A DNA stretch of 64,000 nucleotides from Candidatus Coprovivens sp. (GCA_051892935.1 JBJFGS010000025.1:80813-144812); one strand, 5' to 3'. Shown: positions 3,472 to 12,176, numbered from the stretch's first letter. The notes: generated by a model from the letters alone, not told the origin. Made by a program: numbers and translations.

Positions 3472-4318
3472 CTAATTAGAGGATTGTAACCTGTAATTCA
3501 CGGGAGACAGTCCTTTTAATTTTACTTTAATTCTATCGTAATTATAATAATAAATATAGTCATCAATCGCTTTTATCAAATCATCTAATGTTTTATAATT
3601 ATCCTCTTGGTCATAAAACATTTCTGTTTTAAGTATACCAAAGAAATTTTCCATCATTCCATTATCCATACTATTTCCTTTTCTAGACATACTTTGTTTT
3701 ATACCATTATTTTTTAATCTTTGCTGATAAGATTGATGTTGATATTGCCATCCTTGATCTGAATGAAATATTAATCCTTCTAAATTATTATTTTTATTAA
3801 ATGCTTTATTTAGCATATCATTAATTTGTTCTAAGTTTGGTGATTTAGAAGTATTATAAGAAATTACTTCGCCATTATATCCATCTAATATTGGTGATAA
3901 ATAACATTTTTCACCACGAAGATTAAATTCAGTAACATCTGTATACCATTTTTCATTTGGTTTGTCTGCATAAAAATTTCTATCGATTAAATTATCGGTA
4001 ATTTTACCTATAGTTCCTTTATATGATGAATATTTTCTTTTATTTCTTTTTAACGGTTTTAAACCTAATTTAACCATTATTCTATAGACTTTTTTATGGT
4101 TAACATTATAACCTTAATTTCTTAATTCTAATGTGATTCTACGATAACCATATCTTTCTTTATTATTAATAAATATTTCCTTTATTTTATCATTATTTCC
4201 TTATTTTTATCATCTTTATCTATTTTAGATAAAGTATAATAATATACTGATTTAGCTAAACCAGATATTTTCAGAAGAATCACTAATGGATATATTAGCC
4301 GAAGTTCACTTACAACAT
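3472..4318 (-). pseudogene. IS3-family transposase OrfB (DDE integrase core), disrupted by one frameshift and one in-frame TAA
   Basis: ORF 3472..4077 carries the DDE core (YTDVTEF, HSDQGWQY, ..TEMFY). Translation of 4078-4318 gives the expected OrfB N-terminus (LAKSVYYYTLSK.. then KEIFINNKERYGYRRITLELRN*GYNVNHKKVYRIMVKLGL) only by crossing a frameshift and a TAA stop. Confidence 0.75.
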
Positions 4319-4825
4319 TTACTTTTTCTTCTGTTGTTGATTCTTCCTTGCTTGAACAACGGCTCTCAATTTTTTTGAGTATTCTAGCTCCGCTTTTAAA
4401 TATAAATTTTCTTCTTCCAATCTTTTTATTTTTTCTTTATCTGTTTCATTTTCTTTTTTCTTTGTTACTTTAGGCATAGTTGACCGTCCTCGCTTTCGTT
4501 CAACTATATTATAACCATTTTCTATATAATTTTTAATCCAATTTTGTAACATTCCATAACTTAGTAAACTCATATCCAAAGCAACAGACCATACGGCCTC
4601 ACCATTAATTAAAACTCTATCAATAGCTTCTTGTTTTTCGAATCTTGTATGATTTTTATTTTTACCAGCTCTTAAAATATCTATTCCGTGTTTATCAATT
4701 AGTGCAATTAGATAATTTATTAGACATTTTCTAACTTTATACTTATTTGATAAACTGCATATGGACATTCCATTCTTTTTATCATTATACAAATTTATTT
4801 TATCTTCATAAGTTAATTTTGACAT
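4319..4825 (-). CDS. IS3-family transposase OrfA (HTH DNA-binding, leucine-zipper part)
   Basis: 168 aa, Lys/Glu-rich coiled-coil C-terminus, ends at the AAAAAAG frameshift window typical of IS3 orfAB. Confidence 0.85.
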   Translation of the reverse strand: MSKLTYEDKINLYNDKKNGMSICSLSNKYKVRKCLINYLIALIDKHGIDILRAGKNKNHTRFEKQEAIDRVLINGEAVWSVALDMSLLSYGMLQNWIKNYIENGYNIVERKRGRSTMPKVTKKKENETDKEKIKRLEEENLYLKAELEYSKKLRAVVQARKNQQQKKK

Positions 4826-4900: not shown

Positions 4901-5812
4901 TTAAACTTTTTCTACTAATTTAATAGATTTATCTACTAAGTAATTAATATTTTCATCTCTACATACTGTATCTTTTTTAGTATGAATTTTATCTATATAT
5001 TCAAAATGCTTTCCTCTAATTACTGAACAAACACCTACACCATTAGTAAAATTAGCTTGATCAGATGGATAAATAGCTCCTTTAGTAATCATATCAGTAA
5101 TAACATTATTATCACTAGTATAAACATCTTTTAACAAATCTACATTTTTAATAGCTTTTTTATTAAAAATAAACATAATTTTATCTCCATCAGAAACACA
5201 ATCAAAATTAATTAGTAGCTTTTCTTTCATAACATCCTTATGCTTAGAAGCAAAAGATGCAGAACCTATAAGTCCAGATTCTTCTAAATCAAACAAGATA
5301 AAAGCAACTTTATCTTTTAAATTATCAGGTATTTTATTAATCATTTCTAGAATAGTTAATACACCAGATGTGTTATCATTAACAGTAGATTTATTTGCTG
5401 GACCAAACATTATTAAACAAACAAATAATATTATAATAAAATCATATATAAGTTCTAATAATAACTCATTAATTGGAAACAAAAATGAAATTCCAATAGT
5501 AATAAAAGCAGAAACAAATACAATTAAGAATAATAATAAAATTTGATATAAAACATAAATAAAAATATTTGTAGGTGTAATAAAATTAGGAACAGGTAAT
5601 ACAGCACAAGTATCATAATGAGCCGTAAATAAAACCTTAGCTTTACTAACATCACCAATAACTATATTTCTACTACCAAAATATCCTTTTTCAATTGATA
5701 TGTCATATTTAGAATCTTTTAATTCCTCTTTAACATAACTAATAAACTCATTTTTTTGTTTTTTATTTTTTCTAACCATATACTTATTTAAAATAGTATC
5801 TTTATACTTCAT
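4901..5812 (-). CDS. M28-family metallopeptidase-like protein with internal TM segments
   Basis: FTAHYDT..., DLEESGLIGS motifs (M28 zinc ligands). Start reassigned to ATG at 5812, behind RBS GGAGGAAG; the ORF-track start at 5917 lacks an RBS. Confidence 0.55.
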   Translation of the reverse strand: MKYKDTILNKYMVRKNKKQKNEFISYVKEELKDSKYDISIEKGYFGSRNIVIGDVSKAKVLFTAHYDTCAVLPVPNFITPTNIFIYVLYQILLLFLIVFVSAFITIGISFLFPINELLLELIYDFIIILFVCLIMFGPANKSTVNDNTSGVLTILEMINKIPDNLKDKVAFILFDLEESGLIGSASFASKHKDVMKEKLLINFDCVSDGDKIMFIFNKKAIKNVDLLKDVYTSDNNVITDMITKGAIYPSDQANFTNGVGVCSVIRGKHFEYIDKIHTKKDTVCRDENINYLVDKSIKLVEKV

Positions 5813-5847: not shown

Positions 5848-6018
5848 TTAATAATATATTAACATTCCAAAAATAGATATCAAAGAACCTAAAATCATAA
5901 CAAGAGCCATAATCCAACCAACAATTTTCATTACTAATTTTCTTTTTTGATTGGCAGTCATTTTTTTCTTTTTAGGTTTAATTTTTTCTTCGACTTCATC
6001 TTTAATTTTTTTTGCCAT
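5848..6018 (-). CDS. small Lys-rich protein (56 aa) with C-terminal TM helix
   Basis: Not in the ORF track (<60 aa). Strong RBS GAGGTGA, 7 nt, then ATG. Sequence MAKKIKDEVEEKIKPKKKKMTANQKRKLVMKIVGWIMALVMILGSLISIFGMLIYY. Lies directly upstream of and co-directional with the M28-like gene. Confidence 0.4.
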   Translation of the reverse strand: MAKKIKDEVEEKIKPKKKKMTANQKRKLVMKIVGWIMALVMILGSLISIFGMLIYY

Positions 6019-6102
6019 TTAAAATCACCTCTAACTATATAAACTAAATATAATTTATCATATTTTTCACCTTAAGTAAATAAATTTAATCAGGTGAAAA
6101 AT

Positions 6103-6669
6103 ATGATAAGAATAATATCGAAGTATAAAAATATCTATATATTTCTAATAACACTAGCTATAATCGGTGCAATAAGTGGTTATCTATATTATCAGATTCA
6201 ACCAACTAAAACTAAAGAAGAAATAAAAACAAACGTCAACATCAAAGAAAGCATAAATTCAAGAGTAAATAACTTATCTAAAAACTTAAAAAATAATATA
6301 AAAATATTCTTTTATTCACTATTAATAATACCTATAATAATAAATATCTTTAATATATTTTATAAGCCTTTCGAAATAGGTTTTATTTTTAATTTATTAT
6401 CAAAATATAATATTAAACTATCATTAATATATACAAACATATACTTAAATATTCCTTTTATAATAAGTATCATCCTAACTAGAATAAGTATAACTTTCAT
6501 ATATAATATAATAAAATACATTATAATAAGAGATAATAAATCAAAAGTATTAATAAAAAATACATTTAAAAAATACATTATAATAATAATTATTTCAATA
6601 CTATACGATATATTAATTATCATCACTAGTCCTTATATAAACAGATATTTAATGACATTTATTAAATAA
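6103..6669 (+). CDS. hypothetical polytopic membrane protein
   Basis: Ile/Leu-rich, several predicted TM helices. RBS AGGTGA, 5 nt, then ATG at 6103 (the track's GTG 6094 start lies inside the RBS). Confidence 0.5.
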   Translation: MIRIISKYKNIYIFLITLAIIGAISGYLYYQIQPTKTKEEIKTNVNIKESINSRVNNLSKNLKNNIKIFFYSLLIIPIIINIFNIFYKPFEIGFIFNLLSKYNIKLSLIYTNIYLNIPFIISIILTRISITFIYNIIKYIIIRDNKSKVLIKNTFKKYIIIIIISILYDILIIITSPYINRYLMTFIK

Positions 6670-6700
6670 TAATGTTATAATTAATAATAGAGGTGATGAT

Positions 6701-8368
6701 ATGGAAGCACTAGCTATCAGCGCAGCAAATTTAAATACCATAGAAGAAAACTTAGGAGCAGTTGCCAAAGAATTATCTGGAGTCATAAATAATGTTTCAA
6801 CAGTAAATGATCAAGTAAATAAAGTAGAATCAAAAGTAGAAACACTTAATGACGAAGTAAAAAGCCTAGTTAAAGAAATAAGAGAAACTACTATAATAAC
6901 AAACGCTCGTCAATCTATTATGTATAACAACTCAGAAATAGAAAAAAAATATGGATACTACGATAAAGTAAGAAGAACAACTGAATCCCTATTAGATGCT
7001 ATTGAAAACTCATCAATAAGAAAAAATTCTCTTCAAGAACTAAATCAAGAAATTATTTTAAATAATCCAAATTACTGGTTATCTTCTGCTTTAGCTGCAT
7101 TATCATCATGGTTATTAAACGATCGTACAAATACCGAAAAAGAATTAAATAACGCATTAAAAAAAGATAATAAAAAAACAAGTCTTTTCTTCTGTTTGAT
7201 AAATTTAAAATTACAAAGAACTCAAACATCTTTAAATTGGTTAAATAAATATCTATCTCTTCAAAATCCAACTAAATTAGATAAAGATTTTATAACTATC
7301 CTTGATTTAATTGCAACAGGTACTTTTGGTGATGAAGCCAAAAATACAGTATTAAAAAAAATAAATTTCTGGTTTAATAGTCTTAACTCTGAAAAAGAAA
7401 TACAAAACGAACAAAAAAGCATATGGAGCAATTTTTTAAAAACAAAACAAGATACCGATATAAGAATGCCAAATTTAGAAAACTATTCCCCAGATGTATT
7501 CAAACTAAAAAACAACTTAGCAATAACATCAACTTATATAAATGTCCTTAATCATTTAGAAAACATTATAAAAAGCGACACATCAAATAAAGGAATAAAC
7601 GAAATAATAAATAATTTAATATACGAATACGAATCAAATGAACAAATATATCAAAAAGACAATTTAAAAAATAATCTTATTATAGAATGTAATGGTAATA
7701 GAGAAGAAGCCGAAAAACTATTTAAAAAACAAGAAAGTATTTATAACAATGAAACCAATCTTCTAACCCTTTTAAGCAACATTATAATATATAAAAATTC
7801 ATACAGTATTAGTAATGAAACACAAAAAATAGCTTTATCACTAATGAAAGAATACATCCAAAACGCTATTGAAGAAATGAATGAAGAAATAAGTAAAGAT
7901 AACATCAATATATCAATAGACAAATTTAAAACAACAACCAAAGATGGAAGTAATTTAAAAGAAGCAAAACAAGACTTAGAAGCTTATCTAAGTACGATAT
8001 TTAATGAAGAAGATAAAGATTTAATAATTACTCTTTTAATAATAAATATTCTAGGAATAATAGGAATATTCATAACTTTAAACAGCAAAATTCTTTGTAC
8101 ATTATTAATAATAATAATTCTATTAGGAAATTTCATTTTACTATTTAAATTAAATCAAAGAAATAGGCTAAGAACAAGAGAAAAAAATAAATTGAGAATC
8201 AATATAGGAAATATCCTTGAAAGAGTCTTAGCAGAAACAACAGATTACAACAACTTAATGTTAGAAGACAACGAACATTATATAGAATTAAAAACATATC
8301 TAAACAATCTAGAAGCTGAAAACTACACAAAAAGTAACGACGAAAGAAATATTAATATAGGAGAATAA
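6701..8368 (+). CDS. hypothetical protein, N-terminal coiled coil plus C-terminal double TM hairpin (555 aa)
   Basis: RBS GAGGTGA. Heptad-like N-terminus (VNDQVNKVESKVETLNDEVKSLVKEI). Hydrophobic C-terminal stretches LIITLLIINILGIIGIFITL and LCTLLIIIILLGNFILLF. Confidence 0.55.
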   Translation: MEALAISAANLNTIEENLGAVAKELSGVINNVSTVNDQVNKVESKVETLNDEVKSLVKEIRETTIITNARQSIMYNNSEIEKKYGYYDKVRRTTESLLDAIENSSIRKNSLQELNQEIILNNPNYWLSSALAALSSWLLNDRTNTEKELNNALKKDNKKTSLFFCLINLKLQRTQTSLNWLNKYLSLQNPTKLDKDFITILDLIATGTFGDEAKNTVLKKINFWFNSLNSEKEIQNEQKSIWSNFLKTKQDTDIRMPNLENYSPDVFKLKNNLAITSTYINVLNHLENIIKSDTSNKGINEIINNLIYEYESNEQIYQKDNLKNNLIIECNGNREEAEKLFKKQESIYNNETNLLTLLSNIIIYKNSYSISNETQKIALSLMKEYIQNAIEEMNEEISKDNINISIDKFKTTTKDGSNLKEAKQDLEAYLSTIFNEEDKDLIITLLIINILGIIGIFITLNSKILCTLLIIIILLGNFILLFKLNQRNRLRTREKNKLRINIGNILERVLAETTDYNNLMLEDNEHYIELKTYLNNLEAENYTKSNDERNINIGE

Positions 8369-8370
8369 CT

Positions 8371-8547
8371 ATGAACGAAGAACAATTTAAAAAACTAGAT
8401 ATAGGCAATGAAATAAAAATAAAACCAGCTATTATTAATCTTCCAGAAAAAAAAGATAAAGATAATAAAAATGATGAAAAAATAATAGTCGAACTTCCAA
8501 CATGGAACATAGAACCACCTATAGAAATAAAAAGAGGCGAACAATGA
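8371..8547 (+). CDS. small hypothetical protein (58 aa)
   Basis: RBS GGAGAA 5 nt upstream of ATG, 2 nt after the previous stop. Its stop overlaps the next start (ATGA). Confidence 0.4.
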   Translation: MNEEQFKKLDIGNEIKIKPAIINLPEKKDKDNKNDEKIIVELPTWNIEPPIEIKRGEQ

Positions 8548-8978
8548 CATACGAAGAATGGTTAAATACAATTGAAGAATTAAAACACCCAAACCTAAGC
8601 ATAGATAATCTAAATAAAATAAAAAACACCTCCTTAAATGAAAATATTAATCCTTTATTAATTCCTAAAATAGAAAATTTAGTTAAAGAAAGATTAAACA
8701 ACAGCATAAATAAAATAATTTTAAATCTTAGTGAAATATTTAGCGATATAAACTACTTAGATCTAACACTACTAAATTTTAAAAAAGAAATAAACTATAT
8801 ATTAGAGATAATCTCTATAAAACAATTACCAGAAGAAAAACAAAAAGAATTAAAAGACATGATAAAAGCCGAAAGTAATAATGTAATAGAAATTCTAAAT
8901 AAAGAAGCACAAAAGCTTGATTACACAGGTTCCTTATCATCAATAATAAATAACTATAGAATAAAATGGAGTGAATAA
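8544..8978 (+). CDS. hypothetical protein (144 aa)
   Basis: ATG at 8544 behind RBS AAGAGG, ATGA overlap with the upstream small ORF (translational coupling). The longer track ORF from 8502 overlaps the upstream gene and lacks an RBS. Confidence 0.5.
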   Translation: MTYEEWLNTIEELKHPNLSIDNLNKIKNTSLNENINPLLIPKIENLVKERLNNSINKIILNLSEIFSDINYLDLTLLNFKKEINYILEIISIKQLPEEKQKELKDMIKAESNNVIEILNKEAQKLDYTGSLSSIINNYRIKWSE

Positions 8979-8979
8979 A

Positions 8980-10476
8980 ATGAATTACAATGAAGCAAAA
9001 GAATACTTAAAAAGATATTTAAAAGCAAGAATACCAGTTATTATAATTAATACAGCAGAAAAAAATCGTTCATTAAGATTAATTAAAGAAATTGCCAATG
9101 AAGCAAATATGAATTTTAATTTATATCAAATGTCTCAAGGAATATCTGATTTAAAAACAAATACAATAAAAAGCGAAGATAAAACAATAATGAGTGCCAT
9201 TGATTACATTGTAAACGAAATAAGACACCAAGAAAATAGTAATTTTATCATAAGTGATATATCAGATATATACGAATCAACCACCATTTCAAGGTACCTT
9301 GTAGATGTAATAGAAAAAGCAGAAACCATGTCTGGAGTAATAGTTTTAGTTACAAACGAACCAATTTGGTCAAATATTCAAAGATTAGGAATAACAATCA
9401 AACTAAACTACCCTACAGAATCAGAATTAAAAGAAACAATAATGAACACTATTTCTCCTTATAAAAACCAAATTGAAATAGAATGGGATGAAATAGACTA
9501 TGTAAATGCTGCAACATATCTTCAAGGATTAAGTGAAATGGAAGTAAAAAATATTATCTCATCATTAATTGTAAAAGGTTCAATAAAAAAAGAAGATTTA
9601 AAAGAACTAAAATATGCAAAACAAACTTTATTTAATGAAATAGCAGGGTTAGAAGCTATTGAAGTAGATGATGACTTTCAAATAGCTGGACTAGATAATT
9701 TAAAAGAATGGTTATATGAAAAGAAAACTTTAATGGATCCAGCAAAAAAAGAAGAGCTATCAAAAAGAGGAATTGCTGCTCCTCGAGGAATTCTACTAAC
9801 TGGAGTACCAGGTTGCGGAAAAAGTCTTTGTTCAAAAGCAACAGCAAGTATCTTTAATATTCCCTTATATAGACTTGATTTAGCAACTGTTCAAGGTCAA
9901 TACGTTGGTCAATCAGAAAAACAACTCAAAGAAGCTCTAGATACAGCAGAATACGTTTCCCCTTGTGTTCTTTGGATTGATGAAATAGAAAAAGGATTAA
10001 ACGATTCAAATTCTAGTGTTACATCAAAAATGATTGGCCAATTCCTATTTTGGTTACAAGAATGTGAAAAGCCCGTATTCGTAATAGCATCAGCTAATAG
10101 CGTTGAATCACTACCACCAGAACTAATAAGAAAAGGACGTTTTGATGAAATATTCTTCGTTGATTTACCAAACGCATCCGAAAGAAAACAACTACTAAAA
10201 TTATATTCAAATAAATATTTAAAAGTAGAAATAAGTGAAGAACTAAAAAACAAACTAGTCTCAATAACCGAAGGATTCGCAAGCGCTGATATTGAGGCAA
10301 CAATTCGTAATATAGCATATAAATTAATTGCCAATAAAGATATCGAATTAACAGAAAGACTTATAATAGAAGAATTATCAAAAGTAGTATCACTATCCAA
10401 AACAAATCCAGAAAAAATAGAAAAAATACGAAAATGGGGACAAGAAAGAGCAACCAAAGCATCAAAAGATATATAG
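8980..10476 (+). CDS. Classical AAA+ ATPase with a ~270-aa N-terminal domain of unknown function, no protease domain
   Basis: Walker A GVPGCGKS, Walker B VLWIDEIEKG, second region of homology ASANSVESLPPELIRKGRFDEIFFVDLP (FtsH/Cdc48-clade AAA). No HEXXH. RBS GGAGTGA, 5 nt, then ATG at 8980. Confidence 0.8.
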   Translation: MNYNEAKEYLKRYLKARIPVIIINTAEKNRSLRLIKEIANEANMNFNLYQMSQGISDLKTNTIKSEDKTIMSAIDYIVNEIRHQENSNFIISDISDIYESTTISRYLVDVIEKAETMSGVIVLVTNEPIWSNIQRLGITIKLNYPTESELKETIMNTISPYKNQIEIEWDEIDYVNAATYLQGLSEMEVKNIISSLIVKGSIKKEDLKELKYAKQTLFNEIAGLEAIEVDDDFQIAGLDNLKEWLYEKKTLMDPAKKEELSKRGIAAPRGILLTGVPGCGKSLCSKATASIFNIPLYRLDLATVQGQYVGQSEKQLKEALDTAEYVSPCVLWIDEIEKGLNDSNSSVTSKMIGQFLFWLQECEKPVFVIASANSVESLPPELIRKGRFDEIFFVDLPNASERKQLLKLYSNKYLKVEISEELKNKLVSITEGFASADIEATIRNIAYKLIANKDIELTERLIIEELSKVVSLSKTNPEKIEKIRKWGQERATKASKDI

Positions 10477-10484
10477 GTGATAAA

Positions 10485-11312
10485 ATGAAAGAAAAAAAAG
10501 ACATCAAATATCTTGTCAAAAGTAACAATTACATAGGACTATTATTCTTCGCGCTAGTACTAGCATCACTATTATATATATTAAAAAAAGAAGAAACAAC
10601 ATTTCAAAACATCGAACCAACTATGAATGAAATAACAAACTTACAAGAACAACCTAAAGAAATAACAGAGCCAACAAAAGAAATATCAGATCTCCAAAAC
10701 TATCTAAATACCGGAGATCCAAACACATTTAATATATATCAATCACATTATATATTAAATGAAAAAATAACAAAAGATAACCTTAATAACGAAACTCTTC
10801 TATATATGGCATATAAATATATAGAAAAAACAACCGACTTCACAAACTATATAAACTACCTGGGTTGTGATGAAGCTCAAATCATAGGACTAGATAATCA
10901 AATAACACAATGTGGTGGAACCAAAATAAATGCTACTACTTATACGATGAACAGATATATTACAAAAGAATTATTAAATAAAACAATCAAAAAAATATTT
11001 AACATAAATCTAACTCAATATACAAACTTTTATACAAGTGAAGATAATCTATGTTACTATTTAAAAGACGAATTTTTATGTGTTTCCCATCAAACAAATA
11101 AAATAACAAATTATGGCGAAAAAGAATTTCAAAAAGCATACAAATATAATAATAAAATAGAAATTATAGAAAAATATCATTTCATAAATAATGGAATATA
11201 TTACAAAGGTTTTAATAGCCAAGAAATAGGTGAAGGATATTATAAAAGTACCTTCAATAAAATAAATGGTTCATATTACTGGGAAAGCACAGAGTATTAC
11301 GAAATAAACTAG
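10485..11312 (+). CDS. hypothetical membrane-anchored / secreted protein (Tyr/Asn-rich ectodomain)
   Basis: RBS AGGTGA then ATG. N-terminal KKDIKYLVK + IGLLFFALVLASLLYIL signal anchor. Confidence 0.5.
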   Translation: MKEKKDIKYLVKSNNYIGLLFFALVLASLLYILKKEETTFQNIEPTMNEITNLQEQPKEITEPTKEISDLQNYLNTGDPNTFNIYQSHYILNEKITKDNLNNETLLYMAYKYIEKTTDFTNYINYLGCDEAQIIGLDNQITQCGGTKINATTYTMNRYITKELLNKTIKKIFNINLTQYTNFYTSEDNLCYYLKDEFLCVSHQTNKITNYGEKEFQKAYKYNNKIEIIEKYHFINNGIYYKGFNSQEIGEGYYKSTFNKINGSYYWESTEYYEIN

Positions 11313-11331
11313 TTATTTTAACTAGTTTTTT
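11306..11331 (+). terminator. Intrinsic terminator closing the AAA cluster
   Basis: Perfect hairpin AAACTAGTTA-TT-TAACTAGTTT followed by TTTTC. Confidence 0.6.
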
Positions 11332-11343
11332 CTTGATATTTCC

Positions 11344-11372
11344 TTGACATATCAAGTGTCTAGCAATATAAT
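11344..11372 (+). promoter_or_regulatory. Consensus sigma-A-type promoter (TTGACA-17-TATAAT) for the HTH gene, overlapped by a palindrome
   Basis: TTGACA 11344-11349, 17-bp spacer, TATAAT 11367-11372. Inverted repeat CTTGATAT (11332-11339) / ATATCAAG (11349-11356) straddles the -35. Confidence 0.6.
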
Positions 11373-11408
11373 TAAGATGTAAAATATAAAAGAAAGGAAT
11401 TGGTAAAA

Positions 11409-12176
11409 ATGCGTAAATTAAATGAATTATTTCAAGAATTAGGAATATCTAAAGTAAGATTAGCAAAATATTTAGGAGTTTCAAGACAAATGGTCTATAA
11501 CTATCTAGAACTAAATGATATAAATAAATGGCCAAAAGAAAAAAAATTATTACTATTTAAATTATTAGATATAAATGATAGTAACGCAATAGAAGATATT
11601 CAAGTAACAACAGACTACTTAATGAATGTTGAAAGTAGATTAAATCAAGGAGTAAAAAGTACGGCTGAAATGGATAATGGTTTAAACTTCAAAGGTTTAA
11701 ATAAAGAATCACAAGTACTCCTAAGCGATATAACTTATCTTCTAAAAGAAAAATTAAGTGATGAGACAAAAGAAGAAAACTACTATGCTATTTTATATCT
11801 ATATCATCTACTACAATCTTTAGATAATGTTCCAGAAATTAAATATATATTTGGTTATATGAGTAAAACAACAGGATTTACCAATCCAGAAGAATATAAA
11901 TTTCAAGAAGATAAACAATTTATTTTTGAAGGTATCCTATACTCAGCTTTAACATTATACAACAACGGAGGAGCATCTCGTTCTAAGTTAGCCGAATCAC
12001 ATAAACGTTTTGTACAAGAAATAGAACAAAAAAATGAAGAAAAACTTTCTCGTACACAACAACTAAATACAATAAAAATTCAAGCACTTAAAGAACTAGG
12101 ATTCACAGAAATAAACGAAAGCAATGCTGCCGAAGTATTTGAAAAAATAGCAGAAATTCAATCAAGAAAGGTTTAG
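11409..12176 (+). CDS. XRE-family helix-turn-helix domain protein with an uncharacterised C-terminal domain
   Basis: N-terminus LGISKVRLAKYLGVSRQMVYNY is a Cro/C1-type HTH. ATG 11409 behind AAAGGAA. Own promoter and own terminator (monocistronic). Confidence 0.7.
   Translation: MRKLNELFQELGISKVRLAKYLGVSRQMVYNYLELNDINKWPKEKKLLLFKLLDINDSNAIEDIQVTTDYLMNVESRLNQGVKSTAEMDNGLNFKGLNKESQVLLSDITYLLKEKLSDETKEENYYAILYLYHLLQSLDNVPEIKYIFGYMSKTTGFTNPEEYKFQEDKQFIFEGILYSALTLYNNGGASRSKLAESHKRFVQEIEQKNEEKLSRTQQLNTIKIQALKELGFTEINESNAAEVFEKIAEIQSRKV

What the first reader, a model, noticed from the sequence alone, without database searches (positions are those of the whole stretch)
5848..11331. Accessory cluster of uncharacterised membrane and secreted proteins around a classical AAA+ ATPase, beside a decayed IS3 element
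Immediately after the IS3 copy lies a divergent pair: a small Lys-rich TM protein plus an M28-like membrane peptidase on the minus strand, and a six-gene plus-strand unit. That unit encodes a polytopic membrane protein, a 555-aa coiled-coil protein with a C-terminal TM hairpin, two small coupled ORFs (ATGA overlap), a 498-aa FtsH/Cdc48-clade AAA ATPase without protease domain (Walker A/B and SRH intact, unknown ~270-aa N-domain), and a signal-anchored protein. It is closed by a perfect hairpin terminator. None of the non-ATPase partners has a recognisable domain. The combination of an AAA unfoldase-type ATPase, a membrane coiled-coil protein and small coupled proteins in a mobile-element-flanked island could be a membrane remodelling or export system, an abortive-infection system, or a lineage-specific surface-protein module.
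Basis: partly seen in the sequence, partly recalled or inferred. Interest (0 to 1): 0.65.

Follow-up and report, generated by a model that had tools for sequence, protein, structure and literature searches.

The report
Conserved membrane-anchored AAA ATPase gene cassette
The cluster is a real operon, but it is not a mobile island here: its core is a four-gene cassette (membrane-anchored coiled-coil protein, two small partners, two-domain AAA unfoldase) of unknown function that is inherited vertically in this gut lineage and turns up in other phyla on mobile elements and next to phage-defence genes.

Summary
The window comes from a Candidatus Coprovivens MAG (order RF39, about 1 Mb genomes).

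The unit is not a six-gene accessory island. Its conserved core is four genes:
- a 555-aa coiled-coil/TPR-like protein with a C-terminal membrane hairpin;
- a 58-aa protein with a conserved C-terminal Pro/Trp motif;
- a 144-aa helical protein;
- a 498-aa AAA ATPase whose "unknown" N-domain is probably a degenerate AAA domain.

This block sits between the same housekeeping genes in six other RF39-like genomes. The IS3 remnant is unique to this genome, and the M28 peptidase is shared with only one close relative.

The same cassette, usually with a fifth gene of about 160 aa, occurs in Streptococcus, Fusobacterium, Komagataeibacter and Comamonas and in many gut and oral metagenome contigs. Gene order is invariant, and CC+small and small+mid gene fusions exist. 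There it lies in variable contexts with integrase remnants, plasmids, Kiwa, restriction-modification and Abi genes.

No partner protein matches Pfam, NCBIfam, PADLOC, PHROGs or the PDB.

Best reading (about 0.4): an ATP-driven, membrane-proximal conflict or defence module that became fixed in RF39. Main rival: a PspA/Vps4-like membrane remodelling or quality-control machine. Function is unproven.

The parts
6701..8368 (+). CC555, core gene 1. N-terminal long helical hairpin/coiled coil (about 1-103), TPR-like alpha-solenoid (about 108-400), beta-hairpin, TM hairpin 438-487 followed by a basic stretch, then a long C-terminal helix.
8371..8547 (+). s58, core gene 2. Small, probably disordered protein with the conserved C-terminal motif LPxW[NDS][IL]xP[PAT]...R.
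   Evidence: Alignment across phyla has invariant P43, W45, P49 and R55. The HMM finds it between CC and mid in the metagenome loci. Most non-RF39 versions carry N-terminal zinc ribbons. The motif is fused to the C-terminus of CC in L019/P0165. It is fused to mid in L063.
8544..8978 (+). s144 ('mid'), core gene 3. Conserved N-terminal (T/S)Y.(E/D/N)W motif (Y3 and W6 invariant); non-RF39 members share a C-terminal SLEESA..DRsG.L segment. Coupled to s58 by an ATGA overlap.
   Evidence: No family match.
8980..10476 (+). AAA498, core gene 4. N-terminal domain of about 230 aa that is probably a degenerate AAA+ domain (no Walker A), plus an active classical AAA domain. Motifs: Walker A 275-282, YVG pore loop 308-310, Walker B 334-335, R384/R387.
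6652..6681 (+). Promoter-like site (ATGACA, 18 nt spacer, TG-extended TATAAT) just upstream of CC555, inside the 3' end of the TM191 gene.
   Evidence: (11 of 12 matches, TG present) and the sequence. This is a consensus match only.
10485..11312 (+). SA275, a signal-anchored protein. It is a lineage-variable add-on and not part of the conserved core.
   Evidence: Present in L007 and L008 at 60-61% identity; absent in L009, L010 and L012. One TM segment at 14-36.
11301..11337 (+). AT-rich hairpin followed by a T-run. Probable intrinsic terminator that closes the operon.
   Evidence: Sequence. Folds at -10.7 kcal/mol, z = -4.19, with 0 of 200 shuffles as stable.
6094..6669 (+). TM191 (probably 187 aa, starting at ATG 6106). 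Membrane protein with about 4 TM segments. Conserved neighbour only within RF39 relatives.
   Evidence: Absent next to the cassette in L011 and in other phyla.
5848..6018 (-). K56, a Lys-rich protein with one TM segment, transcribed divergently. Conserved neighbour in RF39 relatives only.
4901..5812 (-). M28-family peptidase with an inserted TM hairpin. A recent acquisition shared only with the closest relative; not part of the cassette.
   Evidence: Pfam match at 1.3e-18. Present in L006 only. TM segments at 77-144.
3472..4825 (-). Degraded IS3-family element (orfA-like 168 aa and an rve fragment of 201 aa, separated by stop codons). A private insertion between mscL and M28.
   Evidence: rve, rve_2 and rve_3 domains. 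Stop codons in the joining region. No terminal inverted repeats. Absent from all relatives.
11400..12176 (+). HTH258, a separate transcription unit with a perfect TTGACA-17-TATAAT promoter at 11344-11372. It is 90-94% identical across RF39 relatives. Any link to the cassette is unknown.

Best explanation
**What it is (shown).** The window carries a four-gene cassette from a large, undescribed family:
- a membrane-anchored coiled-coil/TPR-like protein (CC);
- a small protein with a conserved C-terminal Pro/Trp motif;
- a helical protein of about 150 aa (mid);
- a two-domain AAA ATPase, with a probably inactive N-terminal AAA-like domain and an active classical AAA domain with an intact pore loop.

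Most members outside RF39 add a fifth protein of about 160 aa with conserved Cys and His residues.

**How it most likely works (inferred).**
1. CC oligomerises through its N-terminal coiled coil. It sits on the cytoplasmic face of the membrane, held by its TM hairpin.
2. Its TPR-like solenoid and C-terminal helix hold the small protein and mid. Gene fusions CC+small and small+mid support this.
3. The AAA hexamer docks on this complex. Using its YVG pore loop, it unfolds or extracts one of these partners, or CC's own tail.
4. This switches CC between a silent state and a membrane-perturbing state.

**Likely role (inferred).** At family level the most likely role is conflict or defence against phages or other mobile elements, of the abortive-infection type. 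In the RF39 lineage the cassette has been fixed and is inherited vertically. There it may have been co-opted for a constitutive membrane function.
For: **Cassette identity and conservation**
- The order CC-small-mid-AAA is found in RF39 relatives, S. oralis, F. vincentii, Komagataeibacter and Comamonas plasmids, and other loci.
- It holds in all 80 metagenome loci wherever the contig continues. In 43 of them the fifth gene is present.
- The CC family has 678 clusters at 50% identity.

**Physical linkage**
- The small-protein motif is fused to the C-terminus of CC in L019.
- Small and mid are fused in L063.
- Stop and start codons overlap or abut.

**Unfoldase competence**
- All AAA motifs and the pore loop are intact and invariant.

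**Membrane proximity**
- CC has a TM hairpin followed by a basic stretch.

**Conflict or mobile character outside RF39**
- Streptococcal copies that are 95-100% identical lie in unrelated upstream flanks. Four of the loci examined (L013, L024, L028, L047) have a 114-118-aa ORF directly upstream that looks like a tyrosine-recombinase C-terminal fragment by reading; this is not a per-protein domain hit.
- The cassette occurs in a satellite-prophage record, on two small Komagataeibacter plasmids beside an IS3 transposase, and in a predicted prophage with a large serine recombinase.
- Neighbours include Kiwa KwaA/KwaB (8.8e-96) plus a type II methyltransferase, AbiH, AbiD and Abi_2, AbiEii-like AAA_21 and HerA-like ATPases.
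- In some strains the AAA or mid gene is split, which suggests the cassette is dispensable there.
- CC is 52% identical between an oral Streptococcus and an oral Fusobacterium. This implies transfer between phyla.
Against: - No experiment exists, and no effector domain (nuclease, pore, lipase or protease) is recognisable.
- PADLOC has no model for CC, small, mid or the fifth protein. The AAA domain matches IetA only as a generic AAA (69.7 bits against a cut-off of 510).
- In RF39 the cassette behaves like a housekeeping locus. It has a fixed position, and the AAA protein is 70-81% identical, similar to GpsA, Xer and the U32 peptidase. This is in genomes of about 1 Mb. That pattern is unusual for defence genes.
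- The cassette is rare on true plasmids (3 of 72,556), in phage records (1 of 50,697) and in IMG/VR (1 of 2.9 million).
- Many flanking genes are ordinary housekeeping genes. My flank census covers 15 hand-picked loci and has no background control.
- The interaction and switching steps are pure inference. The AAA model is of low confidence (pLDDT 64.5).
Confidence: 0.4

Rival explanations
1. A housekeeping-type membrane remodelling or membrane-protein quality-control machine, working like Vps4 with ESCRT-III/PspA or like Msp1/FtsH. CC would be a membrane-bound scaffold or polymer. The tandem AAA would disassemble or extract it, or its clients, to maintain the membrane under stress. Copies on mobile elements would be transferable stress-tolerance modules.
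For: - Strict synteny and housekeeping-like conservation in RF39 genomes of about 1 Mb.
[quoted passage not shown] The authors read this as ATP-dependent membrane remodelling (PMC11237479).
- CC has an N-terminal long helical hairpin and is membrane-anchored.
- The AAA domain scores similarly against CdvC/Vps4, PAN, FtsH and Cdc48.
- No toxin-like domain is present anywhere in the cassette.
Against: - No PspA-like ORF occurs in the window or in any fetched locus.
- The AAA protein has no MIT domain.
- The family has a patchy distribution, variable flanks, pseudogenised copies and defence-gene neighbours. These fit an accessory conflict role better.
Confidence: 0.3
2. An addiction (toxin-antitoxin-like) or otherwise selfish maintenance module. 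One partner would be a membrane toxin (CC). It would be kept in check by a labile partner (small or mid) whose turnover is controlled by the AAA unfoldase. This would explain persistence both on small plasmids and in reduced genomes.
For: - Present on 26-kb and 38-kb non-mobilizable Komagataeibacter plasmids.
- Tight translational coupling between the genes.
- Small and mid evolve fast (35-49% identity) while the AAA protein is 70-81% identical.
- The cassette is retained in 1-Mb genomes.
Against: - Five-gene TA systems with a 555-aa "toxin" are not known.
- Copies with a split AAA gene appear to be tolerated. If AAA loss released a toxin, such copies should be lethal.
- There is no similarity to any TA family.
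Confidence: 0.1
3. A lineage-specific surface-protein or export module, one of the first reader's options. The AAA ATPase would power secretion or assembly of the signal-anchored SA275 and the neighbouring lipoprotein.
For: - SA275 and a lipoprotein gene lie downstream.
- TM191 and K56 are membrane proteins.
Against: - SA275 is absent from 3 of the 5 relatives that cover that position.
- TM191, K56 and SA275 are absent from the cassette in all other phyla.
- The conserved core proteins have no signal peptides.
- There is no channel or secretin-like component.
Confidence: 0.05

Closest known systems
"Inactive-classical-AAA + classical-AAA" proteins found beside PspA or divergent Snf7 (Ravi et al. 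2024, mSystems, PMC11237479; example AEY64320.1 of Clostridium sp. BNL1100)
   Same: - The ATPase has the same two-domain architecture: a degenerate N-terminal AAA copy and an active classical AAA.
- It is operonic with membrane-associated coiled-coil or alpha-helical proteins.
- The proposed action is close to the membrane.
   Different: - No PspA or Snf7 homologue occurs in or near any copy I examined.
- The partners here (CC with a TPR-like solenoid and TM hairpin, the motif-bearing small protein, mid, and the fifth protein) are not described in that paper.
- I could not test whether the two ATPases are orthologous.
Vps4/CdvC with ESCRT-III (and bacterial PspA/Vipp1)
   Same: - A classical-clade AAA unfoldase with a pore loop is paired with a helical-hairpin protein at the membrane.
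- A short Pro-rich C-terminal motif on a partner recalls the MIM2 motifs bound by Vps4. This resemblance is from memory and was not tested.
   Different: - There is no MIT domain. The CdvC model scores 88.5 bits against a cut-off of 650.
- CC has no detectable ESCRT-III fold or sequence similarity.
IetAS (IetA/IteA AAA ATPase plus IetS protease) anti-phage and anti-plasmid system
   Same: - A single active classical AAA domain preceded by an N-terminal extension.
- A multi-gene accessory cassette.
- The AAA domain gives the best PADLOC hit (3.1e-27).
   Different: - The match covers only the AAA core. The NCBIfam IteA model scores 69.7 bits against a cut-off of 510.
- No S8 protease partner is present in the window or in the cassette.
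Cdc48/p97/VAT and FtsH
   Same: - These are the closest solved AAA domains: VAT at 9.5e-54 and p97 D2 at about 6e-44.
- The Walker, pore-loop and SRH motifs are the same.
   Different: - There is no double-psi-barrel N-domain and no second active ring.
- There is no M41 protease domain.
- The protein is 498 aa. The CDC48 model scores 116.8 bits against a cut-off of 802, and the FtsH model 89.6 against 600.

Membership tests
Classical-clade AAA ATPase (PF00004) | Walker A GxxGxGK[ST], Walker B hhhhDE, sensor-1 Asn, second region of homology with Arg fingers, and an aromatic-hydrophobic-Gly pore loop. | tested here: met
   G275-S282, D334-E335, N373, R384/R387 and Y308-V309-G310 are all invariant in 13 homologues and across phyla. 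Pfam 5.8e-30. PDB alignment to VAT.
FtsH | N-terminal TM segments and a C-terminal M41 zinc-protease domain. | tested here: not met
   No TM segment. No Peptidase_M41 hit. FtsH_fam scores 89.6 bits against a cut-off of 600.
Cdc48/p97/VAT | Double-psi barrel N-domain plus two AAA rings, D1 and D2. | tested here: not met
   CDC48 subfamily model scores 116.8 bits against a cut-off of 802.65. The N-terminal 235 aa hit nothing in the PDB by profile search or in Pfam.
Tandem 'inactive AAA + classical AAA' ATPases associated with PspA/Snf7 (PMC11237479) | An N-terminal AAA-like domain that has lost its nucleotide-binding motifs, followed by an active classical AAA domain. | tested here: inconclusive
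   - The model of residues 1-220 (pLDDT 70-85) has a beta-alpha-beta-alpha core plus a helical lid.
- hhalign aligns the stretch 'VIVLVTNEP...ITIKLNYPTESELKETI' to the sensor-1/beta5/lid region of the active domain, but only at E = 0.023.
- The Walker A position reads NTAEKNRS.
Tandem 'inactive AAA + classical AAA' ATPases associated with PspA/Snf7 (PMC11237479) | A neighbouring PspA or Snf7 (ESCRT-III superfamily) gene. | tested here: not met
CC N-terminus against PspA gives hhalign probability 0.7%. No Pfam PspA_IM30 or Snf7 hit.
Tandem 'inactive AAA + classical AAA' ATPases associated with PspA/Snf7 (PMC11237479) | Orthology with the published exemplar AEY64320.1. | not testable with these tools
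   The sequence could not be fetched.
IetAS / IteA anti-phage system | An IteA-type ATPase above the model cut-off, plus an adjacent IetS subtilisin-like protease. | tested here: not met
   NF042959 scores 69.7 bits against a cut-off of 510. No S8 protease occurs in the window cluster.
MADS defence system | mad6, mad7 and mad8 are mandatory (10.1101/2023.03.30.534895). | tested here: not met
   Only generic HerA-like 'mad8' hits and a few mad2/mad3 hits appear, and only in flanking genes of other loci. No mad6 or mad7 hit was found. In the window, only the HTH of HTH258 hits mad1, at E = 0.0069.
   The block from K56 to the AAA gene is present at the same position, between U32/MscL and HTH/Zip/Xer/MgsA/GpsA, in L006-L010 and L012. 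The IS3 is absent from all of them.
IS3-family insertion sequence | orfA and orfB (rve, DDE) joined by a frameshift, plus terminal inverted repeats. | tested here: inconclusive
   The rve, rve_2 and rve_3 domains are present. The orfB N-terminal part is interrupted by stop codons, and no convincing terminal inverted repeats were found. This is consistent with a decayed copy.

The most novel reading that the evidence does not exclude
The cassette is a previously unrecognised bacterial membrane machine. A hexameric pseudo-AAA/AAA unfoldase would remodel a hairpin-anchored coiled-coil/TPR protein through short C-terminal docking peptides. It would be an ESCRT/Vps4- or Msp1-like principle built from unrelated parts. 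Most lineages would use it as a mobile anti-phage effector, while the reduced RF39 gut bacteria would have domesticated it as a core cell-envelope function.
Probability: 0.2. Interest if true: 0.8.

Novelty: new variant of a known kind. Interest (0 to 1): 0.6.

Why it matters
- **A large unexplained family.** The CC protein alone has at least 678 sequence clusters at 50% identity. The cassette has invariant gene order and spans at least three phyla. It has no entry in Pfam, NCBIfam, PADLOC or PHROGs for four of its five proteins, and no solved structure.
- **If it is a defence system.** It would add a new membrane-associated mechanism driven by an unfoldase.
- **If it is a remodelling or quality-control machine.** It would be a bacterial analogue of Vps4/ESCRT or Msp1, and part of the minimal gene set of RF39, an abundant and uncultured gut lineage.
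- **It is testable.** Cultivable hosts carry near-identical copies: Streptococcus oralis, Fusobacterium vincentii, Komagataeibacter and Comamonas.

Tried and rejected
**Searches that found nothing useful**
- Family searches of every protein against Pfam, NCBIfam, PADLOC and PHROGs found only M28 and AAA.
- A protein search with the AAA N-domain alone returned only fragments of close relatives.
- PDB sequence-profile searches gave nothing for the AAA N-domain or the fifth protein. For CC they gave only coiled-coil noise.
- The AF2 model of the AAA protein was poor (pLDDT 64.5). The pseudo-AAA assignment of the N-domain therefore stays tentative.
- Cluster look-ups gave no informative names.
- Literature searches found no description of this cassette.

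**Ideas tested and dropped**
- PspA/ESCRT-III identity of CC: rejected at sequence level.
- MADS membership, suggested by 'mad' hits in flanks: rejected. The hits are HerA-like ATPases, and mad6 and mad7 are missing.
- A phage-borne origin: rejected as the general rule. Only 1 phage record and 1 IMG/VR contig carry the cassette.
- The fifth gene of about 160 aa was looked for in the whole window and in the RF39 relatives, and was not found.
- SA275 is not part of the core.


Full report
**1. What is in the window**

The region has about 21-30% G+C, like its surroundings. ORF listing and independent gene calls on five metagenome contigs that encode the identical ATPase agree on the genes below.

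| Gene | Coordinates | Strand | Note |
|---|---|---|---|
| IS3 remnant | 3472-4825 | - | |
| M28 peptidase | 4901-5812 | - | |
| K56 | 5848-6018 | - | |
| TM191 | 6094-6669 | + | 187 aa if it starts at ATG 6106 |
| CC555 | 6701-8368 | + | |
| s58 | 8371-8547 | + | |
| s144 | 8544-8978 | + | |
| AAA498 | 8980-10476 | + | |
| SA275 | 10485-11312 | + | |
| HTH258 | 11400-12176 | + | separate transcription unit |

- The junctions are tight. CC555/s58 is separated by 2 nt, s58/s144 overlap by ATGA, and s144/AAA is separated by 1 nt.
- An AT-rich hairpin with a T-run at 11301-11337 folds at -10.7 kcal/mol, z = -4.2.
- It is followed by a perfect TTGACA-17-TATAAT promoter for HTH258.
- A TG-extended promoter-like site lies just before CC555 at 6652-6681.
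- Only M28 and AAA have family matches in Pfam, NCBIfam, PADLOC and PHROGs.
- Hydropathy gives about 4 TM segments in TM191, one each in K56 and SA275, and two in the M28 peptidase. CC555 has a TM hairpin at 438-487, followed by KLNQRNRLRTREKNKLR.

**2. Organism and synteny: not an island**

- CC555 and AAA498 are 100% identical to proteins of a "Candidatus Coprovivens sp." MAG.
- This genus is GTDB UBA11963, family CAG-1000, order RF39 (PMC8035907). Contigs that carry the ATPase reach 1.06 Mb.
- Seven genome loci encode CC relatives. In six of them (L006-L010 and L012) the gene order is U32 peptidase, a 206-aa gene, MscL, K56, TM191, CC and small; in the five whose contig continues (L007-L010 and L012) it runs on through mid, AAA, SA275 where present, HTH258, Zip, a 207-aa gene, Xer recombinase, MgsA and GpsA. 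L006 ends within the small gene.
- The IS3 is absent from all of them. M28 is present only in the closest relative, L006. SA275 is missing in L009, L010 and L012.

Identities to the window proteins in these relatives (the low end of the AAA and CC ranges is L011):

| Protein | Identity |
|---|---|
| AAA | 70-81% |
| CC | 51-81% |
| mid | 44-49% |
| MgsA | 83-88% |
| GpsA | 79-83% |
| Xer | 75-80% |
| HTH258 | 90-94% |

- The IS3 itself is degraded. Stop codons lie between the orfA-like ORF and the rve ORF, and no terminal inverted repeats were found.
- In this lineage the cluster is therefore a vertically inherited block. One IS copy, and earlier an M28 gene, were inserted beside it.
- In the most distant relative, L011, only CC-small-mid-AAA is kept, and it lies between unrelated genes. 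This defines the core.

**3. The cassette outside RF39**

- The ATPase matches phrog_8638 over its full length (8e-90). A tblastn search of phage records led to Streptococcus satellite prophage Javan368 (47% identity, 99% coverage).
- That record has a 573-aa CC homologue (26% identity over the full length, 2e-60). It also has an unannotated 58-aa ORF ending in LPSWDIVPPQLLVRRKRQK, a 154-aa mid homologue, the ATPase, and a 160-aa protein.
- tblastn of this CC against plasmids found four records: the Fusobacterium vincentii chromosome (52% identity), a Comamonas antarctica megaplasmid, and two small Komagataeibacter nataicola plasmids.
- All carry the same order, plus the gene of about 160 aa either upstream or downstream.
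- More loci came from representative proteins and from one IMG/VR prophage that has a large serine recombinase.
- An exhaustive profile search counts 678 clusters at 50% identity with E <= 1e-3, and 289 with E <= 1e-30. Most are 550-620 aa long.
- A metagenome scan confirmed 546 relatives. In the 80 loci kept, local HMMs find CC-small-mid-AAA wherever the contig continues. In 43 loci the fifth gene is also present.

**4. Anatomy of the proteins**

*CC*
- The AF2 model (pLDDT 74.8) has a long N-terminal helical hairpin (2-103, low confidence) and a well-modelled solenoid of 14-residue helices (108-400).
- It continues with a beta-hairpin, the TM hairpin, and a helix to residue 535.
- Invariant residues across phyla cluster in P123-x-Y125-W126-L127, K159 (in most members part of EKTSLFF) and W180.

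*Small protein*
- It has a variable N-terminus and an invariant C-terminal P-x-W...P...R motif.
- Most non-RF39 versions carry one or two zinc ribbons (DZR/Zn_Ribbon_1). The window's s58 has none.
- In L019 the motif is part of the CC polypeptide. In L063 small and mid form one protein.
- These fusions argue that CC, small and mid act as one complex.

*AAA protein*
- The C-terminal half is a canonical classical AAA domain with an intact YVG pore loop.
- The N-terminal 230 aa have no sequence match. They model as beta-alpha-beta-alpha plus a helical lid.
- I read this as a degenerate AAA domain, with moderate confidence.

*Fifth protein*
- It has invariant C98 and H107 within a conserved (K/P)C(Y/H)LG...(E/D).H stretch, and an invariant IEV.
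- It has no PDB or Pfam match.
- It is absent from the whole window and from the RF39 relatives.

**5. Context outside RF39**

- Streptococcal copies whose CC is 95-100% identical have unrelated upstream flanks. In four examined loci a 114-118-aa ORF lies directly upstream. I read it as a tyrosine-recombinase C-terminal fragment from its sequence, without a per-protein domain hit.
- I took a census of 135 flanking ORFs from 15 loci. Defence-related hits:
  - Kiwa KwaA/KwaB (8.8e-96), next to a type II methyltransferase and an HTH controller;
  - AbiD and Abi_2 (two ORFs each), and AAA_21 (two ORFs);
  - six or seven HerA-like ATPases.
- Mobile-element and other hits in the same census:
  - five rve transposases, two tyrosine integrases and two dynamin-like proteins;
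  - ordinary genes such as IlvD, HisRS, ribosomal protein S4 and ABC transporters.
- AbiH lies beside L021.
- The 'mad8' hits are generic HerA similarity. MADS needs mad6-8, which are not present.
- In L061, L065, L073 and L079 the cassette is embedded in a tightly spaced operon of up to nine genes, seen complete in L061 and L073. The order is a 307-aa gene, a HerA-like gene of about 885 aa, CC, small, mid, AAA, a gene of 1051-1533 aa, a gene of 244-251 aa, and the fifth gene.
- Some copies have a split AAA or mid ORF.
- True plasmid, phage and IMG/VR occurrences are rare.

**6. Interpretation**

*Shown*
- A conserved four- or five-gene cassette exists.
- Three of its products are linked by gene fusions.
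- One product is membrane-anchored and faces the cytoplasm.
- One product is an unfoldase-competent AAA ATPase.

*Inferred*
- The AAA hexamer acts on the CC/small/mid complex at the membrane.

*Role*
- The patchy distribution, transfer between phyla, variable flanks, integrase remnants, defence-gene neighbours and occasional pseudogenes favour a conflict or defence function at family level. I give this about 0.4.
- The RF39 behaviour favours a constitutive membrane remodelling or quality-control role. That behaviour is a fixed position, housekeeping-like conservation and 1-Mb genomes. I give this about 0.3.
- The second reading echoes the published association of "inactive AAA + classical AAA" proteins with PspA/Snf7 and other coiled-coil proteins (PMC11237479).
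- However, CC is not detectably PspA- or ESCRT-III-like, and no PspA gene accompanies any copy.

**7. Comparison with known systems and novelty**

- The ATPase is a member of the classical AAA clade. It is not FtsH, Cdc48, Vps4/CdvC, PAN or IteA by their curated cut-offs.
- The closest published description is the tandem inactive/active AAA class of Ravi et al. The partner proteins here are not described in that paper, nor in any library I could search.
- I rate the cassette a new variant of a known kind: an AAA-driven, membrane-proximal multi-protein cassette.
- It is interesting mainly because it is large, invariant, wholly unannotated and testable in cultivable hosts.
- An unexplained detail: in the non-RF39 branch, CC, small, mid and AAA all end in similar basic and alternating-hydrophobic tails, such as ...NRRIKV...VRRKR...RNHKVNSF and ...TRKVLV.

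Noticed in passing
window 11344-12176: HTH258 lies directly downstream of the cassette. It has its own perfect TTGACA-17-TATAAT promoter and is 90-94% identical across RF39 relatives, more conserved than MgsA or GpsA. Only its N-terminal HTH is recognisable. It is not associated with the cassette in other phyla.
   Followed up: partly
L061 426-12584; L073 5806-19483; L079 6375-20982; L065 6125-16972: In some gut metagenome contigs the cassette sits inside a tightly spaced operon of up to nine genes (complete in L061 and L073). The order is an unknown 307-aa gene, a HerA-like ATPase of about 885 aa, CC, small, mid, AAA, an unknown gene of 1051-1533 aa, an unknown gene of 244-251 aa, and the fifth gene. 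None of the four extra proteins has a Pfam or PADLOC family, apart from the HerA domain.
   Followed up: partly
L073 2644-5788: A complete Kiwa system (KwaA 7.9e-27, KwaB 8.8e-96), a type II methyltransferase and an HTH controller lie immediately upstream of the extended cassette. This is a defence-island context.
   Followed up: yes
L019 7001-8845 (P0165); L063 3834-4784: Gene fusions. In L019 the small-protein motif (PPQWDLIPP...R) is the C-terminus of CC. In L063 one 316-aa protein combines the zinc-ribbon small protein with mid.
   Followed up: yes
L048 11738-12331; L072 1818-2402; L020 3062-3997; L017 10049-10360: Outside RF39 the 'small' protein is 100-310 aa long and starts with one or two zinc ribbons (DZR, Zn_Ribbon_1). 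The window's 58-aa version has no cysteines and keeps only the linker and the C-terminal motif.
   Followed up: yes
L024 12377-13953; L035 12379-13840; L052 2938-4510; L084 6758-8262; L101 and L102 (mid): The ATPase or mid ORF is split into two pieces in several otherwise intact copies. These are possible pseudogenes or assembly errors.
   Followed up: no
L018 299-9839: An orphan CC homologue (612 aa) has no small, mid or AAA gene. It lies directly after two large S8 (subtilisin-like) peptidase genes and a Y1 transposase.
   Followed up: no
L099 2524-8777; L093 1223-7475: A dynamin-family GTPase (846 aa) and a 1220-aa HerA/FtsK-like ATPase lie divergently just upstream of the cassette in two loci.
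   Followed up: no
L013 4898-5242; L024 and L028 9280-9624; L047 8880-9236: In these four Streptococcus loci a 114-118-aa ORF lies on the opposite strand directly upstream of the cassette. By its sequence it looks like the C-terminal fragment of a tyrosine recombinase. It may mark the edge of a decayed integrative element.
   Followed up: partly
window 4901-5812: The M28 peptidase has a hydrophobic insert of about 65 aa (two TM segments, residues 77-144) before its catalytic domain. It is present only in this genome and its closest relative, L006.
   Followed up: partly
CC, small, mid and AAA C-termini in L023-L092: Four subunits of the non-RF39 cassettes end in similar basic, alternating-hydrophobic tails: NRRIKV, VRRKR, RNHKVNSF and TRKVLV. 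These may be a shared docking peptide. RF39 copies lack them.
   Followed up: no
window 54574-61569: A 2331-aa ORF lies on the minus strand. It is the largest gene in the window and was not examined.
   Followed up: no
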